IMG/VR virus record: IMGVR_UViG_3300011232_000001
Location: 48,337-68,336 of that record
Direction: 5' to 3' (one strand)
Source of the DNA: an uncultured virus (IMG/VR IMGVR_UViG_3300011232_000001)
Lineage: Duplodnaviria; Heunggongvirae; Uroviricota; Caudoviricetes
Length of the DNA stretch: 20,000 nt
A program made the position numbers and the translations under genes. The notes under the pieces are model-generated. The model was not told where the DNA came from, did not search any database, and was given only the letters and a program-made list of their open reading frames with translations. The stretch's first letter is position 1. Each line of letters starts with the position of its first letter. This document shows, piece by piece, positions 1-19,646 of this stretch.

Positions 1-93
1 TTCCTTTTTCTGTAGCTGATTACCAAGCAACATACCAATTAATGTGCCTAATGAATTAGAGCTACTTCCTCCACCACTCATAGCCTGTCTCAC
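1..93 (-). CDS. 5' part of a probable second internal virion/DNA-ejection protein (runs off the window)
   Basis: GTG at 93 overlaps the TGA of the upstream gene (GTGA) and has GGAGG at 102-106. An in-frame ATG lies at 81. Reads (M)RQAMSGGGSSSNSLGTLIGMLLGNQLQKKE, open to base 1. Confidence 0.7.
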   Translation of the reverse strand, partial: MRQAMSGGGSSSNSLGTLIGMLLGNQLQKKE

Positions 94-1205
94 TTATTAT
101 TCCTCCCTTCTACGGCTAAACCATTAGCAAAGTACATATTTGCCCCCGTTGTCGAGAGATCATATACAGGTACTTTATTGCTTACCATATCAATTTTCAC
201 TACTTCTTTAAACAATGACATATCAACCACGAAGTAACCTGGCTGTAATTTACCAGCAGGAATAGTCCCAAACATTATATAGAAATTTTGAGTATCAGTA
301 GTAGTTAATTCTGTCCCATCATCAAAAGTGATAGTCAAGTAATTATCAGGCGAAATCATTGGTTCCTGAATCCAAGTAACTTCCTCTTCAACACAATTTA
401 ACTCATCGTCAAAGGAAAGAACTTTATCACCTATTTTAACGTCCTCAATATTAATTTCTCCGTCAGGCGTAGCTATTTTTGTACCAGCTACGAAGCAAGC
501 CATAAATGAACCTATGCCACTGGCAAGCCCTCCAAAGAATCCACTGTCTGAAGATGCAAAAGTACCACCATTGATAGTATTACCAATAGCAGATAGCGTT
601 TGGTTACCCTGGCTACCTTGACCACTGGCAAGGCCAAGATACTGCCCAACATTACCAAATGTCGAAGCATTTGCAGAGTTAGCAAGGGACATAGGCTGAA
701 ATGCTGCCGAAAGTTGGCTAGACAGTAATCCCTGTTGAGTCTGTAAATCAGACGAGTAATCTTGTGACATTTGAGTGGTCATATTCTTCTGCATTTGGTC
801 TACAGATTTATTCATTACTGAACTACCAATAACACCTGTGTTTGCCTTACTAGCTAACAGATTACCAAGAGAGTTTGTATACATAGTGTTGTAATAGTTC
901 TTCTTAGCATCCGTGTAATTACTAGGAATTGTACCCTGTGCAAGCGTATTAATCTTGCCTGTATAGTCGGCTAACGCAGTCCTTGCATTACTATATAGTG
1001 TATTGTAATCAGGATTAATAACCTGCCCCATTAGGCTTGTACCTTGTGATACTAGAGCATTTACCCCTGGCTGAATACTTTTAACATAGTTAGACTGTGT
1101 TTTAATTAAATCTTTTTCTTCTTCTGTTAATTCTCTTTGTGATACTGATGTACCACCACCAAACAATTGAAGGTCAAACTTTAGCTTTTTTATTTCTTCC
1201 TTCAC
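90..1205 (-). CDS. Putative DNA-ejection/internal virion protein (371 aa) with N-terminal Prp-type motif and C-terminal Hint domain
   Basis: Start re-assigned to GTG 1205 because GGAGG lies at 1215-1219. The body is rich in Q/S/G/N/A and ends in the Gly-rich hydrophobic segment GFFGGLASGIGSFMA. This is followed by Hint motifs CFVAGTKIATPDG..IEDVKIGDKVLS and VYDLST..MYFANG. Its position after the gp10-like and GNAT-like genes matches podovirus ejection proteins. Confidence 0.8.
   Translation of the reverse strand: MKEEIKKLKFDLQLFGGGTSVSQRELTEEEKDLIKTQSNYVKSIQPGVNALVSQGTSLMGQVINPDYNTLYSNARTALADYTGKINTLAQGTIPSNYTDAKKNYYNTMYTNSLGNLLASKANTGVIGSSVMNKSVDQMQKNMTTQMSQDYSSDLQTQQGLLSSQLSAAFQPMSLANSANASTFGNVGQYLGLASGQGSQGNQTLSAIGNTINGGTFASSDSGFFGGLASGIGSFMACFVAGTKIATPDGEINIEDVKIGDKVLSFDDELNCVEEEVTWIQEPMISPDNYLTITFDDGTELTTTDTQNFYIMFGTIPAGKLQPGYFVVDMSLFKEVVKIDMVSNKVPVYDLSTTGANMYFANGLAVEGRNNK
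93..497 (-). other. Hint (Hedgehog/intein-like) domain, about 135 aa, at the protein C-terminus
   Basis: The block A Cys1 codon is at 495-497 (A|CFVAGT). Block B reads TDTQ (288-299) in place of TxxH. Block F is VYDL. The end is ANGLAVEGRNNK*, without the His-Asn. Confidence 0.88.
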
Positions 1206-1548
1206 CTTTGCTAACCTCCCTCTCCATAAGGTAAACATCTTCACCTGTGACTAAATCTGTAAGTTTTTCTACAATGTGTGAATTTGTCATCCTCATATAT
1301 GCCTTTATATTACGTCTAACGTAACTACGAAACTTGTTGCATCCCAATTCATGAACCTTACTAAACAACCATACGTCCCAGTAGTCATGATCTTGACTTG
1401 CACACTGATCAAGATACATTATATTACCCTCTTTTTTCCAGGTAATAAATCCTTTTTCTTCGTCAAATTCGAGGTTAAAGTAAGGGGGGAGATAAAACTT
1501 CTCCCCACTCTTATCTTCAAACCATTTAACCCATTCATGAAATTTCAT
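1174..1548 (-). CDS. Small protein, possibly GNAT-fold (positional analogue of P22 gp14/T7 gp13)
   Basis: 124 aa with a GGAG SD and an ATGA overlap with the upstream gene. The segment ELGCNKFRSYVRRNIKAYMR resembles degenerate GNAT C-terminal elements. It lies between the gp10-like gene and the ejection genes. Confidence 0.55.
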   Translation of the reverse strand: MKFHEWVKWFEDKSGEKFYLPPYFNLEFDEEKGFITWKKEGNIMYLDQCASQDHDYWDVWLFSKVHELGCNKFRSYVRRNIKAYMRMTNSHIVEKLTDLVTGEDVYLMEREVSKGEGRNKKAKV

Positions 1549-7599: not shown

Positions 7600-8055
7600 T
7601 TATTTAATTAAAGCCCTTAATTCGTCTAATATTACTTTGTCTTGTGAAATATCAAATTCATTTCTGTTTAATGCGTACATTGAGGCAACTTGAATGATTG
7701 CTGAATGGTAAGCATAATTATTAAAAGGAAGTGTATCTGTGGTTGTTGCTATTGTTGATGGTTTAGCGTAATAGCAAAACTCTATAGGTAGCTTCCCATA
7801 GTTTTCTAGGTTATCCCCATTCTCAATTATTGTTGGATTGCCTATAATCTGGTAGAAATCACTGGGTTTAGTAAATGGGGTTATGTTGCTGGTTACTCTC
7901 TTAATGACTTCATTCTTTCCTAGAGAAATGAGGTGTAGCCACAAAACAGCAATTGCATCATTAATGTAATTGATAATTTCAGAGTCTGTGTAACCAAATG
8001 CATCCTGATCTGATATTCTGTCTCTGATCTTTGTTAATGCCTCTGAGACTAACAT
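7600..8055 (-). CDS. Head-tail adaptor/tail ring protein, paralogue 3
   Basis: 151 aa. Motifs IRDRISD...YTDSEIINYINDA, KPSDF and YYAKP......DTLPF are shared with the two upstream genes. Confidence 0.75.
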   Translation of the reverse strand: MLVSEALTKIRDRISDQDAFGYTDSEIINYINDAIAVLWLHLISLGKNEVIKRVTSNITPFTKPSDFYQIIGNPTIIENGDNLENYGKLPIEFCYYAKPSTIATTTDTLPFNNYAYHSAIIQVASMYALNRNEFDISQDKVILDELRALIK

Positions 8056-8480
8056 TATGCTCCACCTCCCCCTAGATTCTTAACTACCTTTTCAGTTAAG
8101 GCTTGATGCTGAGTAAGTTTATTAAATGGTATAGTATCATCTATAGTACTTACACTGTTTTTCAAGGCATAGTAACGTACTAACATTGAATCTGAATACT
8201 CACTATCAAGGTGTTTAAAAGTAGTTGCTGTGTTATCCCATACAGGATAATTGCCCACGAACTTTACGAAATTATCAGGTCTAGGGTATGCCGTAGTCCC
8301 TGACAATGTAAAGCTTTGTATCATATCAGGTTCTTCCTGATCAATTAATTCCATAGATAGCATTTCAATACTGTCATTTACAACGTCTATCAAATCACTG
8401 TCGCTGTATTTGATCTTCTGCATATCTCCTACTTTACGTCTAACACGTATTAAAACATCGTTAACTGTTGCGCTTGCCAT
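8055..8480 (-). CDS. Head-tail adaptor/tail ring protein, paralogue 2
   Basis: 141 aa. Motifs VRRKVGD...KYSDSDLIDVVNDS, RPDNF.K and YYA.......DTIPF. GGAGG SD. Confidence 0.75.
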   Translation of the reverse strand: MASATVNDVLIRVRRKVGDMQKIKYSDSDLIDVVNDSIEMLSMELIDQEEPDMIQSFTLSGTTAYPRPDNFVKFVGNYPVWDNTATTFKHLDSEYSDSMLVRYYALKNSVSTIDDTIPFNKLTQHQALTEKVVKNLGGGGA

Positions 8481-8492
8481 ATCTTCCCTCCT

Positions 8493-8981
8493 TTACAAAT
8501 TAAAGGGCATGGGGAACTCAATAATATAATTGCCTGTTGCCTTTCGAGTCAGGTCAACGTTCATAATTTGTTTAACCTCTGGCACAGATGTACCATTGAG
8601 GAAACTAATAATATAATTGATCATTGCCTCTTTGAACGTGTCAGGTAAGGGGAAATTATCAGTAGTGCTAGTGATCTGAGGCAGTACGTAAAAGTACTCC
8701 ATTTTGCAATCTTTATCTACAGTAATTTTTGAACCTAGCAGTGAGTATTTAACTGTTGTATCAAACCCAACCAGTTTAGAAAAGTTAGCAGGTAAATAAT
8801 TATCACCTGTTTTTAATGTCATATTATCTTTAGTGACGTAATGGTTACAGTCAGCAAGAATGTCAGAGGCCATACTCAACACAAGGTTAAGTGACTCAAT
8901 TAAATGTTCGTCTGAGTACTTCACCTTACGTGTATCCCCTAAAACCATACGCAACGTTGCGAAGAAGCTTTCTACTGTCAT
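8493..8981 (-). CDS. Head-tail adaptor/tail ring protein, paralogue 1
   Basis: 162 aa. Motifs LRMVLGD...KYSDEHLIESLN, LPANF.K and YFYVLP......DNFPL. GGAGG SD and ATGA overlap. Confidence 0.75.
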   Translation of the reverse strand: MTVESFFATLRMVLGDTRKVKYSDEHLIESLNLVLSMASDILADCNHYVTKDNMTLKTGDNYLPANFSKLVGFDTTVKYSLLGSKITVDKDCKMEYFYVLPQITSTTDNFPLPDTFKEAMINYIISFLNGTSVPEVKQIMNVDLTRKATGNYIIEFPMPFNL

Positions 8982-10242: not shown

Positions 10243-11235
10243 TTAAATCAATCCCCAATCCAATAGTTTTTGAACCTGGGCATCCATTGTTTTACCACGA
10301 AATTCTTTCATATCTCTAGACTTTGACACTGGTTGACTCACAGTACCTATCCCTGGACTTTCGACTTTAGGAGGTGTAGCCGTAACTTGTTTAGTTGTTG
10401 ACGCTACAGGAGTTGCAATCTGATTTTTCTCATGCCATTTTTTACGTGTATCTTCGATGAAGTCTCGAACAACTTGCATTTTACCAGCCTGAATTGCCTG
10501 TAACACTTTATCACTATCCACTCGACTCATTTCATTGTTAAGTCTGTAATGAGCGTAAGCGTCTAGTTCGTCAAAGTTCTCCCCCTCTTTGTCTCTGTAC
10601 TCTTGGATTAAGTCTGTGTATTGACGTTGCATATTTTGCTGTTGGACTGCCTCGTATTGCATTCTGTTTAATTCAACAGTCATAGCAGTATAATGCATTG
10701 GGTCATATTCATTAAATGTCTCTTCTTGGGGAAGTTCCAGTGCTGCCCTTGCTCTTGCAATAGCTTCCTCTTTTAATTTAGCTATGGCATCTTTTGCTTT
10801 GAACTCAGGTGCAGGCTGTTGCGTTTGTGCAGGAGTGCGTTTAGCTTGCTCCATTTGCTCCAGTTCCTGTTTTCTCCGCGAAAGTTCTTGGGTCTTACGT
10901 GTGTAATCTTCTCCCTTTTGGAAATTACTAATAAGTTCGTCTATTGTAACTTCCTTTTCTTCGCCATTAGATTTAACTTTATATTTCGGAGGTTCTTTTT
11001 TCTCTGGTTCCTGGGTAGTTTTAGGTTGTTCAACTTGTGTTGAGTCCTCTTCTTCCTCATCGTCACCAAAAATCAAATTACCATCTTCATCTAACATAAA
11101 GTCAAACTTCTGTTCTTTTGTCTCTGCTTCCAGGTTCGTTTGGTCATCAGAGACTGTATCTTGAATGGAATCCTCTGCGGTTGTTCCATCATCAGCAAAA
11201 CATTGTAAATCAAACTTGAATAACTCTAAATTCAT
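10243..11235 (-). CDS. Capsid scaffolding protein with N-terminal Prp-type cleavage motif
   Basis: 330 aa with an acidic disordered N-terminus. Scaffold motif YKVKSNGEEKEVTIDELISNFQKGEDYTRKTQEL, then a coiled coil and a TPPKVESPG tail. Starts MNLELFKFDLQCF|ADD. GGGAGG SD. Confidence 0.88.
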   Translation of the reverse strand: MNLELFKFDLQCFADDGTTAEDSIQDTVSDDQTNLEAETKEQKFDFMLDEDGNLIFGDDEEEEDSTQVEQPKTTQEPEKKEPPKYKVKSNGEEKEVTIDELISNFQKGEDYTRKTQELSRRKQELEQMEQAKRTPAQTQQPAPEFKAKDAIAKLKEEAIARARAALELPQEETFNEYDPMHYTAMTVELNRMQYEAVQQQNMQRQYTDLIQEYRDKEGENFDELDAYAHYRLNNEMSRVDSDKVLQAIQAGKMQVVRDFIEDTRKKWHEKNQIATPVASTTKQVTATPPKVESPGIGTVSQPVSKSRDMKEFRGKTMDAQVQKLLDWGLI

Positions 11236-11269: not shown

Positions 11270-11563
11270 TTAAATATTATCTGAAACTGCTATACTAACT
11301 GGGCTTGTATAAAATTTGTGGGTATTAGAAAAGGTGACCTCCAATGCGAGTTTATAAGTCTCAGCACTTGGAAAGTCACCTGGCTTTGTAACATAGAATG
11401 CTATTCCACTCTCAGGGTCATGTACTTCACATGGTTTAACTATTCTTGTTGAATTAGAACTCCACTTAATGATTAGGTTAACTGTTGCACCTGTGAGGTT
11501 TACCACTTGACCATCTTCTTTTACCACAAATGTTAACTGTACCCCATAATCTCCTACAATCAT
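11270..11563 (-). CDS. BppU_N-like (Ig-fold) adaptor protein
   Basis: 97 aa. Motifs GD....LTF....DG..VNLTGATV, G...Y....GDF and Y..LEVTF. TAATG-coupled to the 933-aa gene. Confidence 0.75.
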   Translation of the reverse strand: MIVGDYGVQLTFVVKEDGQVVNLTGATVNLIIKWSSNSTRIVKPCEVHDPESGIAFYVTKPGDFPSAETYKLALEVTFSNTHKFYTSPVSIAVSDNI

Positions 11564-14364
11564 TAGATTTTCACCTCAATTTTCTGTGATCTTGATATTT
11601 TGCTACTAAAATCATTAGTTCTTTTTACACTTGTAGTATAGTTATGATTCCTGGTAGCTGATACCTCAAAAGTGTAATCTGTGTCAAATGAAGTCCCATT
11701 CAGGAATAATTCTTTCGGCAGGAAGTTCACTATAATTAGTCTTAGTGTCTCAGGCGTAGTGGTTATGCTTCTAACAACAATTCTACTAATATCAACTTCT
11801 GATACGTAGGCCATCGCAATACGTCTATTGAGGTCATACTTATGTATGAAGCCTGTGCCTTTAGTTCGTATAGTGTCAAACACAAACGACATAAATTGTC
11901 TTTTAGTTTTTCTACTAGTGTCGTATCTGCTTAACGTTGTTAAGTTGATATGTCTTGAAGTTTTCGCTACTAAAGCGCCTTTAGGGGCTATTGTTCTACT
12001 GGTATCAAATGATAACTGTGTATCAGTTAAATGCAGGTCAGTATTAATAAGTCTCGCAGTGTCAAATACTTTTGAAAAAGGAGCCTTAACCTGACGCAAC
12101 ACATCACCATATAGTAATACTGTGCTTCCTATTTTTCTAATAGTGTCTGGTTTATTTGAAACACCATAGACTACAGTACGAGAACTATCAATATTTATAG
12201 TGGTGACTATAGATGGAAGCGCAATAACACGCGAAGTATCTGGGCGAATTGTGATTGTATTCCCAGTACTACGAGTTGTTTTGCAGGAAATTGACACTGT
12301 GTTTCTGTATATACGTTTAGTATCACCTGTAAAAGATGTATTGCCGTATACAACATGACGTACAGTATCTGAACCCAATAATACAGACCACATATCACTT
12401 ATTGTACGTTTGGTATCAACAGTAATTGAAATAGCTAATATTGGTGCGCGTACAGTATCTGCTATCCAAGAATCATTAAGAGCTATTCGCCTCTTTGAAT
12501 CAATGTTTACTGATTGATTAACGTCAATACTTCTTTTTGTGTCTGCATTCAAAATTTCATTAACTAATAGGAAGTAAATGCGTAATGTGTCTCCTGTAAT
12601 ACTAACAAAACGCATAATGTGACGTAAGGTGTTTACTTGTTTTTGAAGGTTGTTCAGTGTAGAACGTTTAGTATCAATAGCAATAGATACTGTTGATACA
12701 CCTTTTCTAAACGTGTCACATGTTAAATTTGTACTATCTAGGTAAGTGGCTTGCCTTAATGTATCTCCGCTTACACTAACGTTTAATAATACAGGACGTT
12801 TGGTATCCAGATTAGGATAGTTACTTACAGTGGTTTTACGTATTAAATCACTAAGCCAACTATAATTTAATACAAGCTTTCTGATTGTATTATTTAAGCT
12901 GCTTGTATTTAAAAGCGTATGTCGTAAGGCATCATGATAGGTTGCGCTGTTATGCAGAATTAACCTGCTAGTATCAGCCCCAATACCATGTGTTACTCTA
13001 GTCTGTCTTATAGTATCAATAGTGACAGACTCTGCCTTCTGCCATATCGTAGACCTGGCTGTATCTGGGTTTATTGTTACTGTGACTCCTATTTTGCGTA
13101 GCAAATCTGCTGTTGCAGTACTAGGAGCATATACTCCGCGTAAGGAATCATCCGTTACTAATATTGTTTTTAAAACTTGTCTTAAACTATCAAGGTTTAG
13201 TGTAGTTGGTATCCCTACAGTAATAGGCCATATCATGCCAGCGTTATAATTCTGTGTTATTTCCGTAGTAGTTAATGCACGATTGTAAAGACGAACAATT
13301 GGCATTTTCCCATTGAAATACAAAGAACCACCGTATTTACCTACCTGCAATTTGCTTGTAGTATCATCAAGCAAAACTGCACCTGAAGCAGTGGAGCCTT
13401 TTAAAACAGTGTTGATATAGATAGCTCTAGCACCAGCCGAGGTTTTAGTTGCTACAAGATGATACCAAGTATTAATTGCCAACGCTCCTGAAGACGTGGA
13501 ACAAGAGGCATTGCCTGTCCACCATGCAACCTGACCACTGGCAAACATACGTAAATAAAAAGAAGTACTGTAATTTCTAGCTACAAAACAAGCATCCTTT
13601 AGCTGTGCAGGGTTTATCCAACACTCTACAGTACATTCACTGGTAAAGTTTAATGCGCTATTATAATTAGCCTCTCCATAATCATTAGTACCATCTAGGA
13701 CTAAAGTATATGGGTCTGTTGCCGTATTTGTCCCTGTCCATCCTGAAGCATTGTTGAAGGACATATTATAAAGAATTGCGTCTATACGATTACCAGAAAT
13801 ATCACGCCAAACTGCCGCGAATGGGGCTTCATAGCTACTACATGTTGAACTTAATTCCACCATAGGATGAAACACATAGCAATCAACGTCACCTGTTTCA
13901 CCAAGGGCGTAGGTTGCAAATGCCATATTAATCCATGCTGAATCACTAGCTACAATACCTTCTATTTTATATAGCTGCCAATCAGTATTAGGCGGTATGT
14001 TTATATAGTGGAGATAATTGTCACCAAAGGTTATACCAGTATCGCCTGTCTTGATATAGACCTGCATAGAGTACGTTGCACCTGCGGTACTCTGCCCTAA
14101 AGTAGTAAAGTATTTAGTAGGGTTTGTGCCTCCAGATGACTTTAACCTATAGGCTCCTACTCCACCTGTAGGGTCAGCATTACCGCCTGTTAGCGTGATC
14201 GTAGCTCCTGCATAGGCTACCCAACCACTACCACTTGCAAAGGTATCAGCACTAGGTGAAAGGATATTCTTTCCTACTGTATTTGTCCCTGGTGCCGAAC
14301 CTGTAGCCTGGGCCGCGTGGTAGTCTACAACAAGACCTGATTTTACATAATTAGGTGTTGCCAT
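11563..14364 (-). CDS. Fibre-like virion protein (933 aa) with a carbohydrate-binding-like domain, a LamG/concanavalin A-like domain and about 34 DTxR repeats
   Basis: LamG motifs LDGTNDY, TVECWINP, NTWYHLVAT, IYIN and FNG....VRLYNRALT..EI.QNY. The C-terminal half is a roughly 14-aa periodic D-[TS]-x-R array. Confidence 0.8.
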   Translation of the reverse strand: MATPNYVKSGLVVDYHAAQATGSAPGTNTVGKNILSPSADTFASGSGWVAYAGATITLTGGNADPTGGVGAYRLKSSGGTNPTKYFTTLGQSTAGATYSMQVYIKTGDTGITFGDNYLHYINIPPNTDWQLYKIEGIVASDSAWINMAFATYALGETGDVDCYVFHPMVELSSTCSSYEAPFAAVWRDISGNRIDAILYNMSFNNASGWTGTNTATDPYTLVLDGTNDYGEANYNSALNFTSECTVECWINPAQLKDACFVARNYSTSFYLRMFASGQVAWWTGNASCSTSSGALAINTWYHLVATKTSAGARAIYINTVLKGSTASGAVLLDDTTSKLQVGKYGGSLYFNGKMPIVRLYNRALTTTEITQNYNAGMIWPITVGIPTTLNLDSLRQVLKTILVTDDSLRGVYAPSTATADLLRKIGVTVTINPDTARSTIWQKAESVTIDTIRQTRVTHGIGADTSRLILHNSATYHDALRHTLLNTSSLNNTIRKLVLNYSWLSDLIRKTTVSNYPNLDTKRPVLLNVSVSGDTLRQATYLDSTNLTCDTFRKGVSTVSIAIDTKRSTLNNLQKQVNTLRHIMRFVSITGDTLRIYFLLVNEILNADTKRSIDVNQSVNIDSKRRIALNDSWIADTVRAPILAISITVDTKRTISDMWSVLLGSDTVRHVVYGNTSFTGDTKRIYRNTVSISCKTTRSTGNTITIRPDTSRVIALPSIVTTINIDSSRTVVYGVSNKPDTIRKIGSTVLLYGDVLRQVKAPFSKVFDTARLINTDLHLTDTQLSFDTSRTIAPKGALVAKTSRHINLTTLSRYDTSRKTKRQFMSFVFDTIRTKGTGFIHKYDLNRRIAMAYVSEVDISRIVVRSITTTPETLRLIIVNFLPKELFLNGTSFDTDYTFEVSATRNHNYTTSVKRTNDFSSKISRSQKIEVKI
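11740..13191 (-). repeat. Protein-level tandem repeat: about 34 units of about 14 aa, core D-T/S-x-R
   Basis: Counted in the translation from DSLR (codon at 13191) to ETLR (ending 11740). Most spacings are exactly 14 aa, some 15-19. The repeat is degenerate at DNA level. Confidence 0.9.
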
Positions 14365-14800: not shown

Positions 14801-15127
14801 TCACTCCTTCTCAAATATTTTTCTTAAATCTGGATTGTCTTTTAATACCTGAAATAGCCCTTGACCAAGTTTGACTACAATAGCTTCATCACTTTTAGAA
14901 GGTAATGGGATATTATAATGAAACACAATTCCATGAATAGTCTCATGAAGGGTTGTTTCAATTTGTCTGTCTTCTGGGTATTTATTAGATACTAAAATCT
15001 CTTGATCTGTAAAATCAATGGAACCTGATAACTCTGCATCCCCTAGCTCTTTAATTTTAGGAACATCTTCAACAGATTTAACAGTATAATCAAATCCTGC
15101 GATTCGTATATTAGAGGGTATTTTCAT
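14801..15127 (-). CDS. HExxH zincin-like (ImmA/IrrE-like) putative metallopeptidase
   Basis: 108 aa. G.IDF..QEI.VS..RQIETTLHETIHGI with a downstream Glu (DEAIV). GGAGG SD and TAATG overlap. Confidence 0.7.
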   Translation of the reverse strand: MKIPSNIRIAGFDYTVKSVEDVPKIKELGDAELSGSIDFTDQEILVSNKYPEDRQIETTLHETIHGIVFHYNIPLPSKSDEAIVVKLGQGLFQVLKDNPDLRKIFEKE

Positions 15128-18779: not shown

Positions 18780-19646
18780 ATGAAAGTGTTATCTTGGGAT
18801 TTTGGCAGGTCAGGTATTAAAGGTACTCACTCGAAGGGAAACATCTATATCCCAAATTCCATTGGTGCTAGTAGAGAAATAGACCTTGAACCTGACCACG
18901 TTGCCCCTATCAATAACTTAAACATTGAATTTGATGGGCAAAAATGTTTTATTGGTAATTTAGCAATTAAAGAATCCCATAATCCAAAGTCAGTCTTTGA
19001 GACTAATTATTGTATACCAGAATCCAGAATGTTCTTGCTGGCTATGGTATCACTGCTCCCAGACAGAGAATTTAACTTATCTGTTGGGTTACCACTCGCA
19101 CTGTATAAGACACAAAAAAAAGACCTTGCAAGGTATCTGCAAGGTAACTTCCACTATAGAGCTAATGGGGAATCAAGGATGGTCACTATCAATCATGTTA
19201 GTGTCTTTCCACAAGGAGTTGGAGCATTCTGGAATAAGCACTTAGATTACAATGGTGATCTTCAATGTGAATTTCCTGAAAGGGCTGGTTTAGTGGATAT
19301 AGGATATAGAGATGTGAATTTAGTCTACATACAGGATGGTGAGTTTATAGATAAAATGTCGTGCAGTATCCCATTAGGTTCCTTCAATGCCTACCTAGAG
19401 GCTATGAAGATATTGCCTGATTATGCGCTAGATCAAATAACTCATGACGTAGTACCTCAATCATGCTGGCATAACTTATCCAATAGAATACGCTCACAAA
19501 TGAATCAAATTTGGTTACGGCAGAATTTCCCTATTTACTCTTCTGGGGGAGCAGCTATATATACTAACATTGGTGAGATACTTCAAGACCCTATCAATGC
19601 TAATGCGAATGGTTACTATAAATTAGAGGTATTAAAAAATGGGTAA
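18780..19646 (+). CDS. parM: ParM/StbA-family actin-like ATPase
   Basis: 288 aa. All five actin motifs are present: DFGRSGIK (phosphate 1), FPQGVGA (connect 1), VDIGYRDVN (phosphate 2), SGGAA (adenosine) and PINANANGYY (connect 2). Confidence 0.9.
   Translation: MKVLSWDFGRSGIKGTHSKGNIYIPNSIGASREIDLEPDHVAPINNLNIEFDGQKCFIGNLAIKESHNPKSVFETNYCIPESRMFLLAMVSLLPDREFNLSVGLPLALYKTQKKDLARYLQGNFHYRANGESRMVTINHVSVFPQGVGAFWNKHLDYNGDLQCEFPERAGLVDIGYRDVNLVYIQDGEFIDKMSCSIPLGSFNAYLEAMKILPDYALDQITHDVVPQSCWHNLSNRIRSQMNQIWLRQNFPIYSSGGAAIYTNIGEILQDPINANANGYYKLEVLKNG

What the first reader, a model, noticed from the sequence alone, without database searches (positions are those of the whole stretch)
90..1205. Putative ejection protein matured at both ends: host Prp-type protease site plus Hint autoprocessing, possibly a self-ligating system
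Seen: the protein begins MKEEIKKLKFDLQLF|GGGTS and ends ...GFFGGLASGIGSFMA|C-Hint*. Known: Prp removes the LxLQxF leader from ribosomal protein L27 and from staphylococcal phage 80alpha capsid and scaffold. Hint Cys1 forms a thioester at the preceding peptide bond. P22 ejection protein gp7 is N-terminally trimmed during maturation. Inference: the mature core of about 220 aa would have a free oligo-Gly N-terminus and an activated C-terminal thioester with no C-extein to receive it. That thioester could be hydrolysed, capture a small molecule or lipid as in Hedgehog, or be attacked by the GGG amine (or the SGGG of the next protein). The last route would cyclise or cross-link the DNA-delivery conduit. 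I know of no description of this combination.
Basis: partly seen in the sequence, partly recalled or inferred. Interest (0 to 1): 0.85.

Follow-up and report, generated by a model that had tools for sequence, protein, structure and literature searches.

The report
Phage ejection protein, two cleavable caps
A likely DNA-delivery protein of an uncultured short-tailed phage starts with a tag copied from its host's ribosomal protein L27 and ends in an optional self-cutting intein-like domain; these look like two separate trimming devices, not a self-joining system.

Summary
The gene lies on the minus strand (window 90-1205) and encodes 371 aa in three parts: a 15-aa leader ending FDLQLF|GGG, a 221-aa helical core rich in S, G, T, N and Q that ends in a Gly-rich hydrophobic tail, and a 135-aa Hint domain starting at Cys237.

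The phage is an SU10-like podovirus. Its relatives sit in Negativicutes genomes.

The leader copies the host L27 pro-sequence that Prp removes. It recurs on the phage's own scaffold protein, and in relatives it tracks the host's L27 variant (FNLQLF in Megasphaera, DLQLF in Selenomonas).

The Hint is closest to bacterial intein-like (BIL) domains. It keeps Cys1, has Gln in place of the block-B His, and lacks the terminal His-Asn, so only N-terminal cleavage is possible.

About half of the core family lacks the Hint (80 of the top 150 of 404 clusters). Those proteins stop inside or just after the same Gly-rich tail.

Every combination of leader and Hint occurs, and the next gene's N-terminus is not conserved. 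So maturation at both ends is supported by comparison, though not by experiment. The self-ligation idea has no comparative support.

I rate this a new variant of known kinds, of moderate interest.

The parts
90..1205 (-). Whole gene: 371-aa precursor (GTG start at 1205, TGA stop at 90-92)
1215..1219 (-). Shine-Dalgarno-like GGAGG, 9 nt before the GTG start
   Evidence: read from the sequence
1161..1205 (-). 15-aa leader M1-F15 (MKEEIKKLKFDLQLF), a mimic of the L27 pro-sequence; predicted Prp cut after F15
   Evidence: Motif from PMC9405229; same motif on the scaffold; host L27 leaders of relatives
498..1160 (-). 221-aa core G16-A236, rich in S, G, T, N and Q; predicted as six long helices of low confidence
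   Evidence: family of 404 clusters
498..542 (-). Gly-rich hydrophobic tail G222-A236 (GFFGGLASGIGSFMA); Hint-less homologues end within or just after the equivalent segment
93..497 (-). 135-aa BIL-like Hint domain C237-K371. Cys1 = 495-497; block B T303 = 297-299 and Q306 = 288-290 (Gln in place of His); block F VYD = 159-167; ends ...VEGRNNK with no His-Asn
10243..11235 (-). Scaffold protein gene; N-terminus MNLELFKFDLQCF|ADDG carries the same leader (leader = 11197-11235)
   Evidence: (phrog_3927 head scaffolding protein)
1..93 (-). Start of the next gene (456-460 aa, mostly outside the window), in the position of a gp15-like second ejection protein; followed in the genome by a 1767-aa LPD38 protein

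Best explanation
The gene encodes the precursor of the first, small internal virion (ejection) protein of an SU10-like podophage. The host is probably a diderm Firmicute of the class Negativicutes. Two independent, removable caps flank a 221-aa helical core.

(1) The N-terminal 15 residues copy the host L27 pro-sequence. They are cut after F15 by the host cysteine protease Prp, as is the scaffold protein of the same phage.

(2) The C-terminal 135-aa Hint domain is closest to BIL domains. It makes an N-S acyl shift at A236|C237, and the thioester is resolved by water or a small thiol. The Hint discards itself and exposes a Gly-rich hydrophobic C-terminal tail, the same kind of end that Hint-less homologues are born with.

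The Hint is an optional pro-domain. My guess is that it masks or solubilises the tail until assembly.

What is shown:
- The motifs, the fold and the conservation of Cys1/T/Q/VYD.
- The optional distribution of the Hint and its independence from the leader.
- The host-matched leaders.

What is inferred:
- Both cleavages.
- The ejection role.
- The purpose of the Hint.
For: Leader:
- It fits (D/N)LQ(F/L)F' of the published L27/Prp motif (passages of PMC9405229).
- Host Prp cuts the 80alpha capsid and scaffold proteins at such a site (passages of PMC5744158).
- In the phage genome the motif heads only this gene and the scaffold gene.
- The phage has no Prp of its own.
- 5 of 5 host genomes of relatives have Prp next to a long L27.
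- Leaders track the host. Selenomonas sp. AE3005 has L27 ..FDLQLF|AHKKG; its prophage ejection protein has ..MDLQLF|GGG and its scaffold ..IDLQLF|AEG.
- 4 of 4 Megasphaera prophage scaffolds have FNLQLF|AEGE, equal to the Megasphaera L27 FNLQLF.

Hint:
- Fold and family evidence.
- C1, T67, Q70, V111 and D113 are invariant in 26 of 26 diverse Hints.
- No terminal His-Asn and no C-extein.

Optional Hint:
- 11 of 32 first hits carry it.
- 70 of the top 150 of 404 clusters carry it.
- 0 of 17 Hint-less loci hold a Hint in any frame.
- Hint-less forms end in the Gly-rich tail.

Ejection role:
- Gene order is tail genes, then 371 aa, 456 aa and 1767 aa with LPD38.
- Core size matches gp14-like proteins of 196-240 aa.
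- SU10 ejection proteins gp20-24 are a contiguous block.
- 21 of 30 related records have an SU10-type capsid protein.
Against: - No cleavage has been observed at either end.
- The residue after the predicted Prp cut is Gly, not the Ala of L27 and 80alpha. I found no data on Prp tolerance there (passages only).
- The host of this phage is unknown.
- The block-B His, a catalytic residue in most Hint domains, is Gln in the whole family, so activity may be slow or conditional.
- The core has no sequence link to known ejection proteins. 0 of 20 members hit Pfam P22_gp7, and there is no credible PDB sequence hit (4 chains, best E 0.21).
- The core's predicted structure has low confidence, pLDDT 50-68.
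- In 80alpha the scaffold leader matters for assembly but its cleavage is dispensable, so cutting may be incidental.
- The closest Hint-less relatives stop 12 residues before the position of the junction, not exactly at it.
Confidence: 0.5

Rival explanations
1. The Hint thioester is not simply hydrolysed. It transfers the core's C-terminus covalently to an amine or hydroxyl, such as a Lys of a partner virion protein, a lipid head group or a cell-wall amine. Hedgehog does this with cholesterol and the ciliate BIL2 domain does it with lysines.
For: - The closest structural neighbours include BIL2 (6Y75, E 8e-11).
- BIL2 forms K-epsilon isopeptide conjugates without ATP (section 2.4 of PMC8616854).
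- Cys1 and the acyl-shift residues are strictly kept.
- The family's mature N-termini are rich in Lys and Gly.
Against: - About half of the family, including the closest relatives, has no Hint and no Hint nearby, so conjugation cannot be essential to the core's job.
- Only 0-10 residues follow most Hints, so there is no adduct-recognition region like Hedgehog's.
- No conserved acceptor N-terminus on the next protein.
Confidence: 0.12
2. One reading: after Prp cutting, the free GGG amine of the same protein or of a neighbour attacks the thioester, giving a cyclic or head-to-tail cross-linked conduit.
For: - Both ends exist in this protein.
- Ligation without a side-chain nucleophile is reported for a BIL domain. 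I saw only the title of the 2LWY paper, in the reference list of PMC7664689.
Against: - Leader and Hint are independently distributed.
- The test on independent pairs shows no link but is underpowered, with 3 pairs on starred (well-supported) branches.
- 38 of 63 xLQxF-leader clusters have the Gly-rich start without a Hint.
- Many Hint-bearing members start with K or GKK, or have no leader.
Confidence: 0.03
3. The Hint is catalytically dead or nearly so (Gln for the block-B His). It stays attached as a folded C-terminal domain, for example as a packaging handle or plug.
For: - The block-B His is replaced by Gln in 26 of 26 Hints.
- A short conserved tail (GG...W..E) follows many Hints, which could be a docking element.
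Against: - Cys1 is present in all 84 Hint-bearing sequences examined.
- T67 and D113 are invariant, which is hard to explain without chemistry.
- Inteins lacking the block-B His can still work (passages of PMC7664689).
- Hint-less relatives show that the core works without this domain.
Confidence: 0.15
4. The protein is not an ejection protein but another late protein, such as a tail accessory, assembly or lysis factor.
For: - No sequence or fold match to any characterised ejection protein.
- The only link is a language-model neighbour cluster with P22_gp7 on 46% of its members, score 0.92.
Against: - Synteny with a 456-aa protein and a 1767-aa LPD38 protein; I recall that LPD38 was defined on large polyvalent proteins.
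- Size and helical, low-complexity nature.
- The endolysin lies further downstream.
Confidence: 0.15

Closest known systems
Host-Prp processing of ribosomal protein L27 and of staphylococcal phage 80alpha capsid and scaffold proteins
   Same: - A short N-terminal leader ending (D/N)LQxF.
- The leader is also present on the phage's scaffold protein.
- No phage Prp, while relatives' hosts have Prp next to a long L27.
   Different: - The substrate is a putative ejection protein of a podophage of diderm Firmicutes.
- The residue after the cut is Gly or Lys, not Ala.
- The leader is absent in some relatives, for example the Megasphaera prophages, although their scaffolds keep it.
Bacterial intein-like (BIL) domains (C. 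thermocellum BIL, PDB 2LWY; Tetrahymena BIL2, 6Y75)
   Same: - Best sequence-profile and fold matches.
- Cys1 and the HINT fold.
- No +1 nucleophile, so mainly cleavage chemistry.
   Different: - Block-B His is Gln.
- No terminal His-Asn of A-type BILs.
- Sits at the extreme C-terminus of a phage virion protein.
- Optional within one orthologous family.
Hedgehog C-terminal (Hog) autoprocessing domain
   Same: A C-terminal Hint that performs only the first acyl shift and releases the N-terminal part. 1AT0 is a fold match at rank 24.
   Different: - No sterol-recognition region; here 5 residues follow the last conserved Hint position.
- No evidence of an adduct.
T7 gp14 / P22 gp7-type small ejection proteins
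   Same: - First and smallest of three consecutive genes after the tail genes.
- Mature size about 220 aa.
- Helical with a hydrophobic segment.
- P22 gp7 is also trimmed at its N-terminus by a host peptidase (recalled, not checked here).
   Different: - No detectable sequence relationship.
- Removable caps of other kinds.

Membership tests
HINT superfamily (Hedgehog/intein fold) | HINT fold | tested here: met
   pLDDT block means are 91-98 over residues 241-370. Foldseek TM (target-normalised) is 0.80-0.90 to 6Y75, 2LWY and 6RIZ, E about 1e-10.
HINT superfamily (Hedgehog/intein fold) | N-terminal nucleophile (Cys/Ser1) at the scissile bond | tested here: met
   Cys237 is invariant in 26 of 26 aligned Hints. 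A Cys was found at the start of all 84 Hint-bearing sequences.
HINT superfamily (Hedgehog/intein fold) | Block B TxxH | tested here: not met
   The Thr is kept. The His is Gln in 26 of 26 and aligns to the His of 2LWY TTFDHP.
HINT superfamily (Hedgehog/intein fold) | Autocatalytic cleavage | not testable with these tools
   Needs expression and mass spectrometry.
Inteins (protein splicing) | Terminal (His-)Asn plus a C-extein starting with Cys/Ser/Thr | tested here: not met
   The protein ends ...ANGLAVEGRNNK-stop. The family consensus is ...GFIAKGG plus 0-10 residues.
A-type BIL domains | Conserved C-terminal His-Asn (as described in PMC7765530) | tested here: not met
   No His-Asn at the end in any of the 26 aligned Hints.
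Hedgehog Hog domain | Sterol-recognition region after the Hint | tested here: not met
   Only 5 residues follow the last conserved Hint position.
Prp substrates (L27-type leader) | N-terminal (D/N)LQ(F/L)F before the cut | tested here: met
   KFDLQLF compared with the motif in PMC9405229.
Prp substrates (L27-type leader) | A(S/H)KK after the cut | tested here: not met
   GGGTS here. Relatives have GKKGG, KKGG or GGGKGG. The phage's scaffold has Ala.
Prp substrates (L27-type leader) | Host encodes Prp and a long L27 | tested here: inconclusive
   Met in 5 of 5 host genomes of relatives. The host of this phage itself is unknown, and the phage has no Prp.
Prp substrates (L27-type leader) | Cleavage by Prp | not testable with these tools
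   Needs co-expression or an in vitro assay.
Podovirus ejection proteins (gp14 / P22 gp7-like) | Sequence membership (Pfam P22_gp7 or solved relatives) | tested here: not met
   0 of 20 family members hit PF25688 at E up to 5. No credible PDB hit (4 chains, best E 0.21). Only a language-model neighbour at 0.92.
Podovirus ejection proteins (gp14 / P22 gp7-like) | Synteny and size: smallest of three genes after the tail genes | tested here: met
   371 aa (mature 221), 456 aa and 1767 aa after the tail genes, compared with the table in PMC8954989.
Podovirus ejection proteins (gp14 / P22 gp7-like) | Present in the head and released on ejection | not testable with these tools
   Needs virion proteomics.

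The most novel reading that the evidence does not exclude
In the Hint-bearing half of this family, the thioester at the core's C-terminus is used to tie the ejection protein covalently to a target amine or hydroxyl. The target could be a lysine of a partner ejection or portal protein, a lipid head group of the host outer membrane, or the Lys/Gly-rich N-terminus of a neighbouring subunit. That would be an ATP-free, BIL2- or Hedgehog-like conjugation step built into a phage DNA-delivery machine.
Probability: 0.1. Interest if true: 0.9.

Novelty: new variant of a known kind. Interest (0 to 1): 0.55.

Why it matters
**Prp mimicry.** This would extend host-Prp mimicry from staphylococcal capsid and scaffold proteins to a putative ejection protein in phages of diderm Firmicutes, a poorly studied group. 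The leaders track each host's L27 variant, which could serve as a host-prediction signal.

**The Hint family.** It defines a large family of virion proteins known only from metagenomes (404 clusters), in which a cleavage-only, His-less Hint domain is an optional C-terminal cap. This is a natural experiment on what such caps are for.

**Testability.** Cultured lysogens exist, so the predictions can be tested: Selenomonas sp. AE3005 (leader plus Hint) and Megasphaera massiliensis NP3 (Hint without leader).

**Practical use.** A compact Hint that performs only N-cleavage with Gln in block B may interest protein engineers.

Tried and rejected
- **Isolated phages.** tblastn of the protein against 50,697 phage records gave 18 hits, all to the Hint part only. 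They were uvsX/RecA inteins and one Ruminococcus phage protein in a different context. No isolate carries the core.
- **Core family assignment.** Pfam and PHROGs found no family for the core. A core profile against PDB sequences found no credible match (4 chains, best E 0.21). The AlphaFold core model is too uncertain for fold search.
- **Acceptor on the next protein.** Downstream ORFs in 46 representative loci (3 had no downstream ORF) begin in many different ways, so I rejected this idea.
- **Partner gene linked to the Hint.** Clustering ORFs of 41 loci showed one family of the downstream (second ejection-type) protein in 17 of 31 Hint-bearing loci and 0 of 10 Hint-less loci (p 0.002). This is not corrected for shared ancestry, so I drew no conclusion.
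- **Leader-Hint coupling on the tree.** Only 3 independent pairs lie on starred (well-supported) branches, so the test is underpowered.
- **Phage-borne Prp.** Absent here. Present in 1 of 30 related virus records and in one Veillonellaceae prophage.
- **Prp tolerance for Gly after the cut.** Nothing in the passages I searched of PMC12324487. Wall et al. 2015 (PMC4418427) is not held.
- **Literature on this combination.** Searches listed no paper describing a Hint on an ejection protein or a Prp leader on one. The library lacks most subscription journals.

Full report
**Observation**

The plus-strand translation of 90-1205 is full of stops. The minus strand holds one ORF.

From the GTG at 1205, which has a GGAGG 9 nt upstream, it encodes 371 residues:
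- A 15-residue leader, MKEEIKKLKFDLQLF.
- A 221-residue core, G16-A236. It is rich in S, G, T, N and Q and has no Cys. It ends GFFGGLASGIGSFMA.
- A 135-residue domain that starts at Cys237 and ends 5 residues after its last conserved position.

All residue-to-base positions were checked.

**Setting**

The window is the last 20 kb of a 68,336-bp virus record with direct terminal repeats.

Its capsid, portal and adaptor proteins belong to the SU10 families: SU10_MCP E 5e-78 and SU10_portal E 1e-138. This makes it an SU10-like podovirus.

On the minus strand the order is:
1. Terminase, portal and scaffold.
2. Capsid, adaptors and a 1435-aa fibre.
3. A 452-aa and a 124-aa protein.
4. This gene.
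5. A 456-460-aa protein with no family.
6. A 1767-aa protein with an LPD38 domain, E 1.4e-42.
7. An endolysin further on.

The family name LPD38 stands for a domain associated with large polyvalent proteins. I recall that it was defined in the polyvalent-protein study PMC5512222. The passages I read there discuss polyvalent proteins that are processed and packed into phage heads; they do not name LPD38.

Published ejection-protein sets run small, medium, large: gp14-like proteins are 196-240 aa (table of PMC8954989). In SU10 the ejection proteins gp20-24 form one block (passages of PMC9509320).

The position, the mature size and the low-confidence all-helical model fit a small ejection protein. 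No sequence link exists:
- 0 of 20 family members hit Pfam P22_gp7.
- There is no credible PDB sequence hit (4 chains, best E 0.21).
- A language-model neighbour cluster with P22_gp7 on 46% of its members (score 0.92) is only a lead.

**The leader**

The published L27/Prp motif is MLxx(D/N)LQ(F/L)F'A(S/H)KK. Host Prp cuts the 80alpha capsid and scaffold proteins at such sites, and the motif also occurs on other phage proteins.

Here KFDLQLF fits the part before the cut. The residue after it is Gly, not Ala.

In the six-frame translation of the whole phage genome a loose regex matched 4 times. Only two matches head long ORFs: this gene and the scaffold gene, MNLELFKFDLQCF|ADDG. The phage has neither Prp nor L27.

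Relatives found in bacterial assemblies lie in Negativicutes in 14 of 18 cases (lineages). The other four are metagenome bins. All five cultured-isolate records are Negativicutes.

In 5 of 5 such genomes a Prp gene sits next to an L27 gene with a leader.

The leaders track the host:
- Selenomonas sp. AE3005 has L27 MFTFDLQLF|AHKKG. Its prophage has the ejection-type protein MKFIMDLQLF|GGGKGG and the scaffold ..KIDLQLF|AEG.
- Megasphaera has L27 MFNFNLQLF|AHKKG, and 4 of 4 Megasphaera prophage scaffolds read ..FNLQLF|AEGE.
- Yet the Megasphaera ejection-type proteins start directly MGKK.., with a stop codon just upstream in some.

One Veillonellaceae prophage carries its own Prp between terminase and portal. 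Its scaffold, capsid and ejection-type proteins all have leaders. Only 1 of 30 related virus records has a Prp.

I conclude that the leader is a real L27 mimic and that host Prp probably cuts it. I also conclude that it is a separable module.

**The Hint**

- Pfam Hint_2 passes its cut-off.
- A profile of 26 diverse family Hints finds the C. thermocellum BIL domain 2LWY best, E 1.6e-13.
- The model is confident there. Its nearest folds are BIL2 (6Y75), 2LWY and the gp41-1 mini-intein; Hedgehog 1AT0 follows at rank 24.
- Invariant in 26 of 26 are Cys1, a Thr and a Gln of block B, and V and D of the block-F VYD.
- The Gln aligns with the His of TTFDHP in 2LWY, so the family has TxxQ instead of TxxH.
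- The end reads ..GF(I/V)A(K/Q/E)G(G) plus a few residues. There is no His-Asn and no C-extein, even in the few members with 14-53 extra, charged residues.

So only the first step, the N-S acyl shift and loss of the N-terminal part, is chemically available, as in Hedgehog. Some inteins work without the block-B His, so activity is plausible but unproven.

**Family picture**

A word-based search gave 32 proteins, 11 with the Hint. Scans of virus and genome contigs added 90 more. Their share of Hints is biased, because one search pattern lay in the Hint.

An unbiased search used a core-only profile against 1.84 billion representatives:
- 404 clusters at E up to 1e-3.
- 247 at up to 1e-10.
- 130 at up to 1e-30.

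Of the top 150, 70 have the Hint. Some of the 80 others are fragments.

Hint-less proteins end in the same Gly-rich hydrophobic tail (..SGGGGLLSGLLGGLF..GKGLF). In the alignment, 11 of 15 Hint-less rows end at positions matching own residues 224-234. The other 4 run 3-10 residues further.

No Hint lies in any frame of 17 Hint-less loci.

On a quick maximum-likelihood tree of 69 of the 70 representatives (P0013 left out):
- Hint presence needs at least 10 changes, at least 3 of them forced by starred (well-supported) branches.
- The starred 11-row clade around this protein has 9 Hint-less members and 2 with the Hint.

**Are the two ends coupled?**

No sign of it. Leader class against Hint, in the 150 representatives:

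| Leader class | With Hint | Without Hint |
|---|---|---|
| xLQxF | 25 | 38 |
| LQLH | 5 | 0 |
| Long leaders ending x[RYHNK][FYL] before K | 11 | 7 |
| No leader | 13 | 16 |
| Unclassified | 16 | 19 |

The 70 dereplicated sequences of the first sets show the same spread. A test on independent pairs found no link but had only 3 pairs on starred branches.

The start of the next gene, SGGG here, is not conserved among 46 representative loci, 3 of which had no downstream ORF.

Amine capture by a Hint thioester does have a precedent in BIL2, so I keep a covalent-transfer reading as the boldest case not excluded.

**Mechanism proposed**

The precursor is made late and Prp removes the leader. The leader may also serve assembly, as in 80alpha, where cutting itself is dispensable.

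The Hint cuts itself off at A236|C237 and frees the Gly-rich tail. I suspect the tail is a membrane-active or oligomerising segment of an outer-membrane channel. That would suit hosts with an outer membrane. This last step and the purpose of the Hint (masking, solubilising or timing) are inference only.

**Novelty**

Searches listed no paper describing a Hint on an ejection protein or a Prp leader on one. The library misses most subscription journals.

Earlier notes of this scan report a Prp-type leader on an ejection-type protein of another phage (e1-6067291). They also report terminal Hint caps on other phage virion proteins (e1-3289343, e1-5916882, e1-5317337). I did not check any of them.

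I file this as a new variant of known kinds.

**Limits**

- No experiment, and the host is unknown.
- The core fold is uncertain.
- Leader classes rest on regular expressions and on called starts.
- The tree is a quick search.

Noticed in passing
window 10243-11235 (-): The scaffold protein (phrog_3927) starts MNLELFKFDLQCF|ADDG, an L27-type leader like that of 80alpha scaffold. Scaffolds of many related phages carry host-matched versions.
   Followed up: yes
window 14801-15127 (-): A 108-aa protein in the head module (phrog_1233, unknown function) contains HETIH, an HExxH motif. It could be a small metallopeptidase.
   Followed up: no
window 11563-14364 (-): A 933-aa protein between portal and scaffold has a Laminin_G_3 lectin domain. 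After it come 23 copies of a D[TS]xR motif, spaced mostly 14 or 28 residues apart (residues 392-830), which suggests a repetitive fibre or beta-helix.
   Followed up: partly
window 18780-19646 (+): An actin-like partition protein (ALP_N, phrog_691) lies next to the terminase gene. It hints at a plasmid-like prophage state.
   Followed up: no
window 7600-8981 (-): Three consecutive small genes. Two have weak SU10_adaptor matches; only one passes the Pfam cut-off, at 27.4 against 27 bits. They are possibly paralogous adaptor or head-completion proteins.
   Followed up: no
L012, L015, L079, L080, L084 (starts of the matched genes): Even leaderless relatives begin MGKK(G/S)..S(S/T)T. This resembles the mature N-terminus of the hosts' L27 (AHKKGTGST), so the mimicry seems to extend past the cut site.
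   Followed up: partly
L120 5620-5946 (-), Veillonellaceae bacterium DNF00626 scaffold: A prophage-borne second Prp gene lies between terminase and portal. The scaffold (MFNLQLF|AEE), the capsid protein (FFDLQLF|AET) and the ejection-type protein (MMDLQLF|KKG) of that prophage all carry leaders.
   Followed up: partly
L049, L056, L033, L077 and others (starts of the matched genes): Many relatives have a longer, different N-terminal extension ending ..YFRHCRF|KGG or ..RMVRY|KGG. In some of the same phages (L041, L051, L055) the scaffold keeps a canonical FDLQRF|AEG leader. Whether and by what these are cut is open.
   Followed up: partly
genome 41731-47034 (-), outside the window (L098 7732-13035): A 1767-aa protein with an LPD38 domain (E 1.4e-42) and phrog_9854. 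It is probably the large injected protein of the ejection set.
   Followed up: partly
ORF directly downstream of the matched gene in related loci: One family of the second ejection-type protein (median 531 aa, with an N-terminal ..ALGxLIGNAxGxNY.. segment) is seen in 17 of 31 Hint-bearing loci and 0 of 10 Hint-less loci. This is not corrected for shared ancestry.
   Followed up: partly
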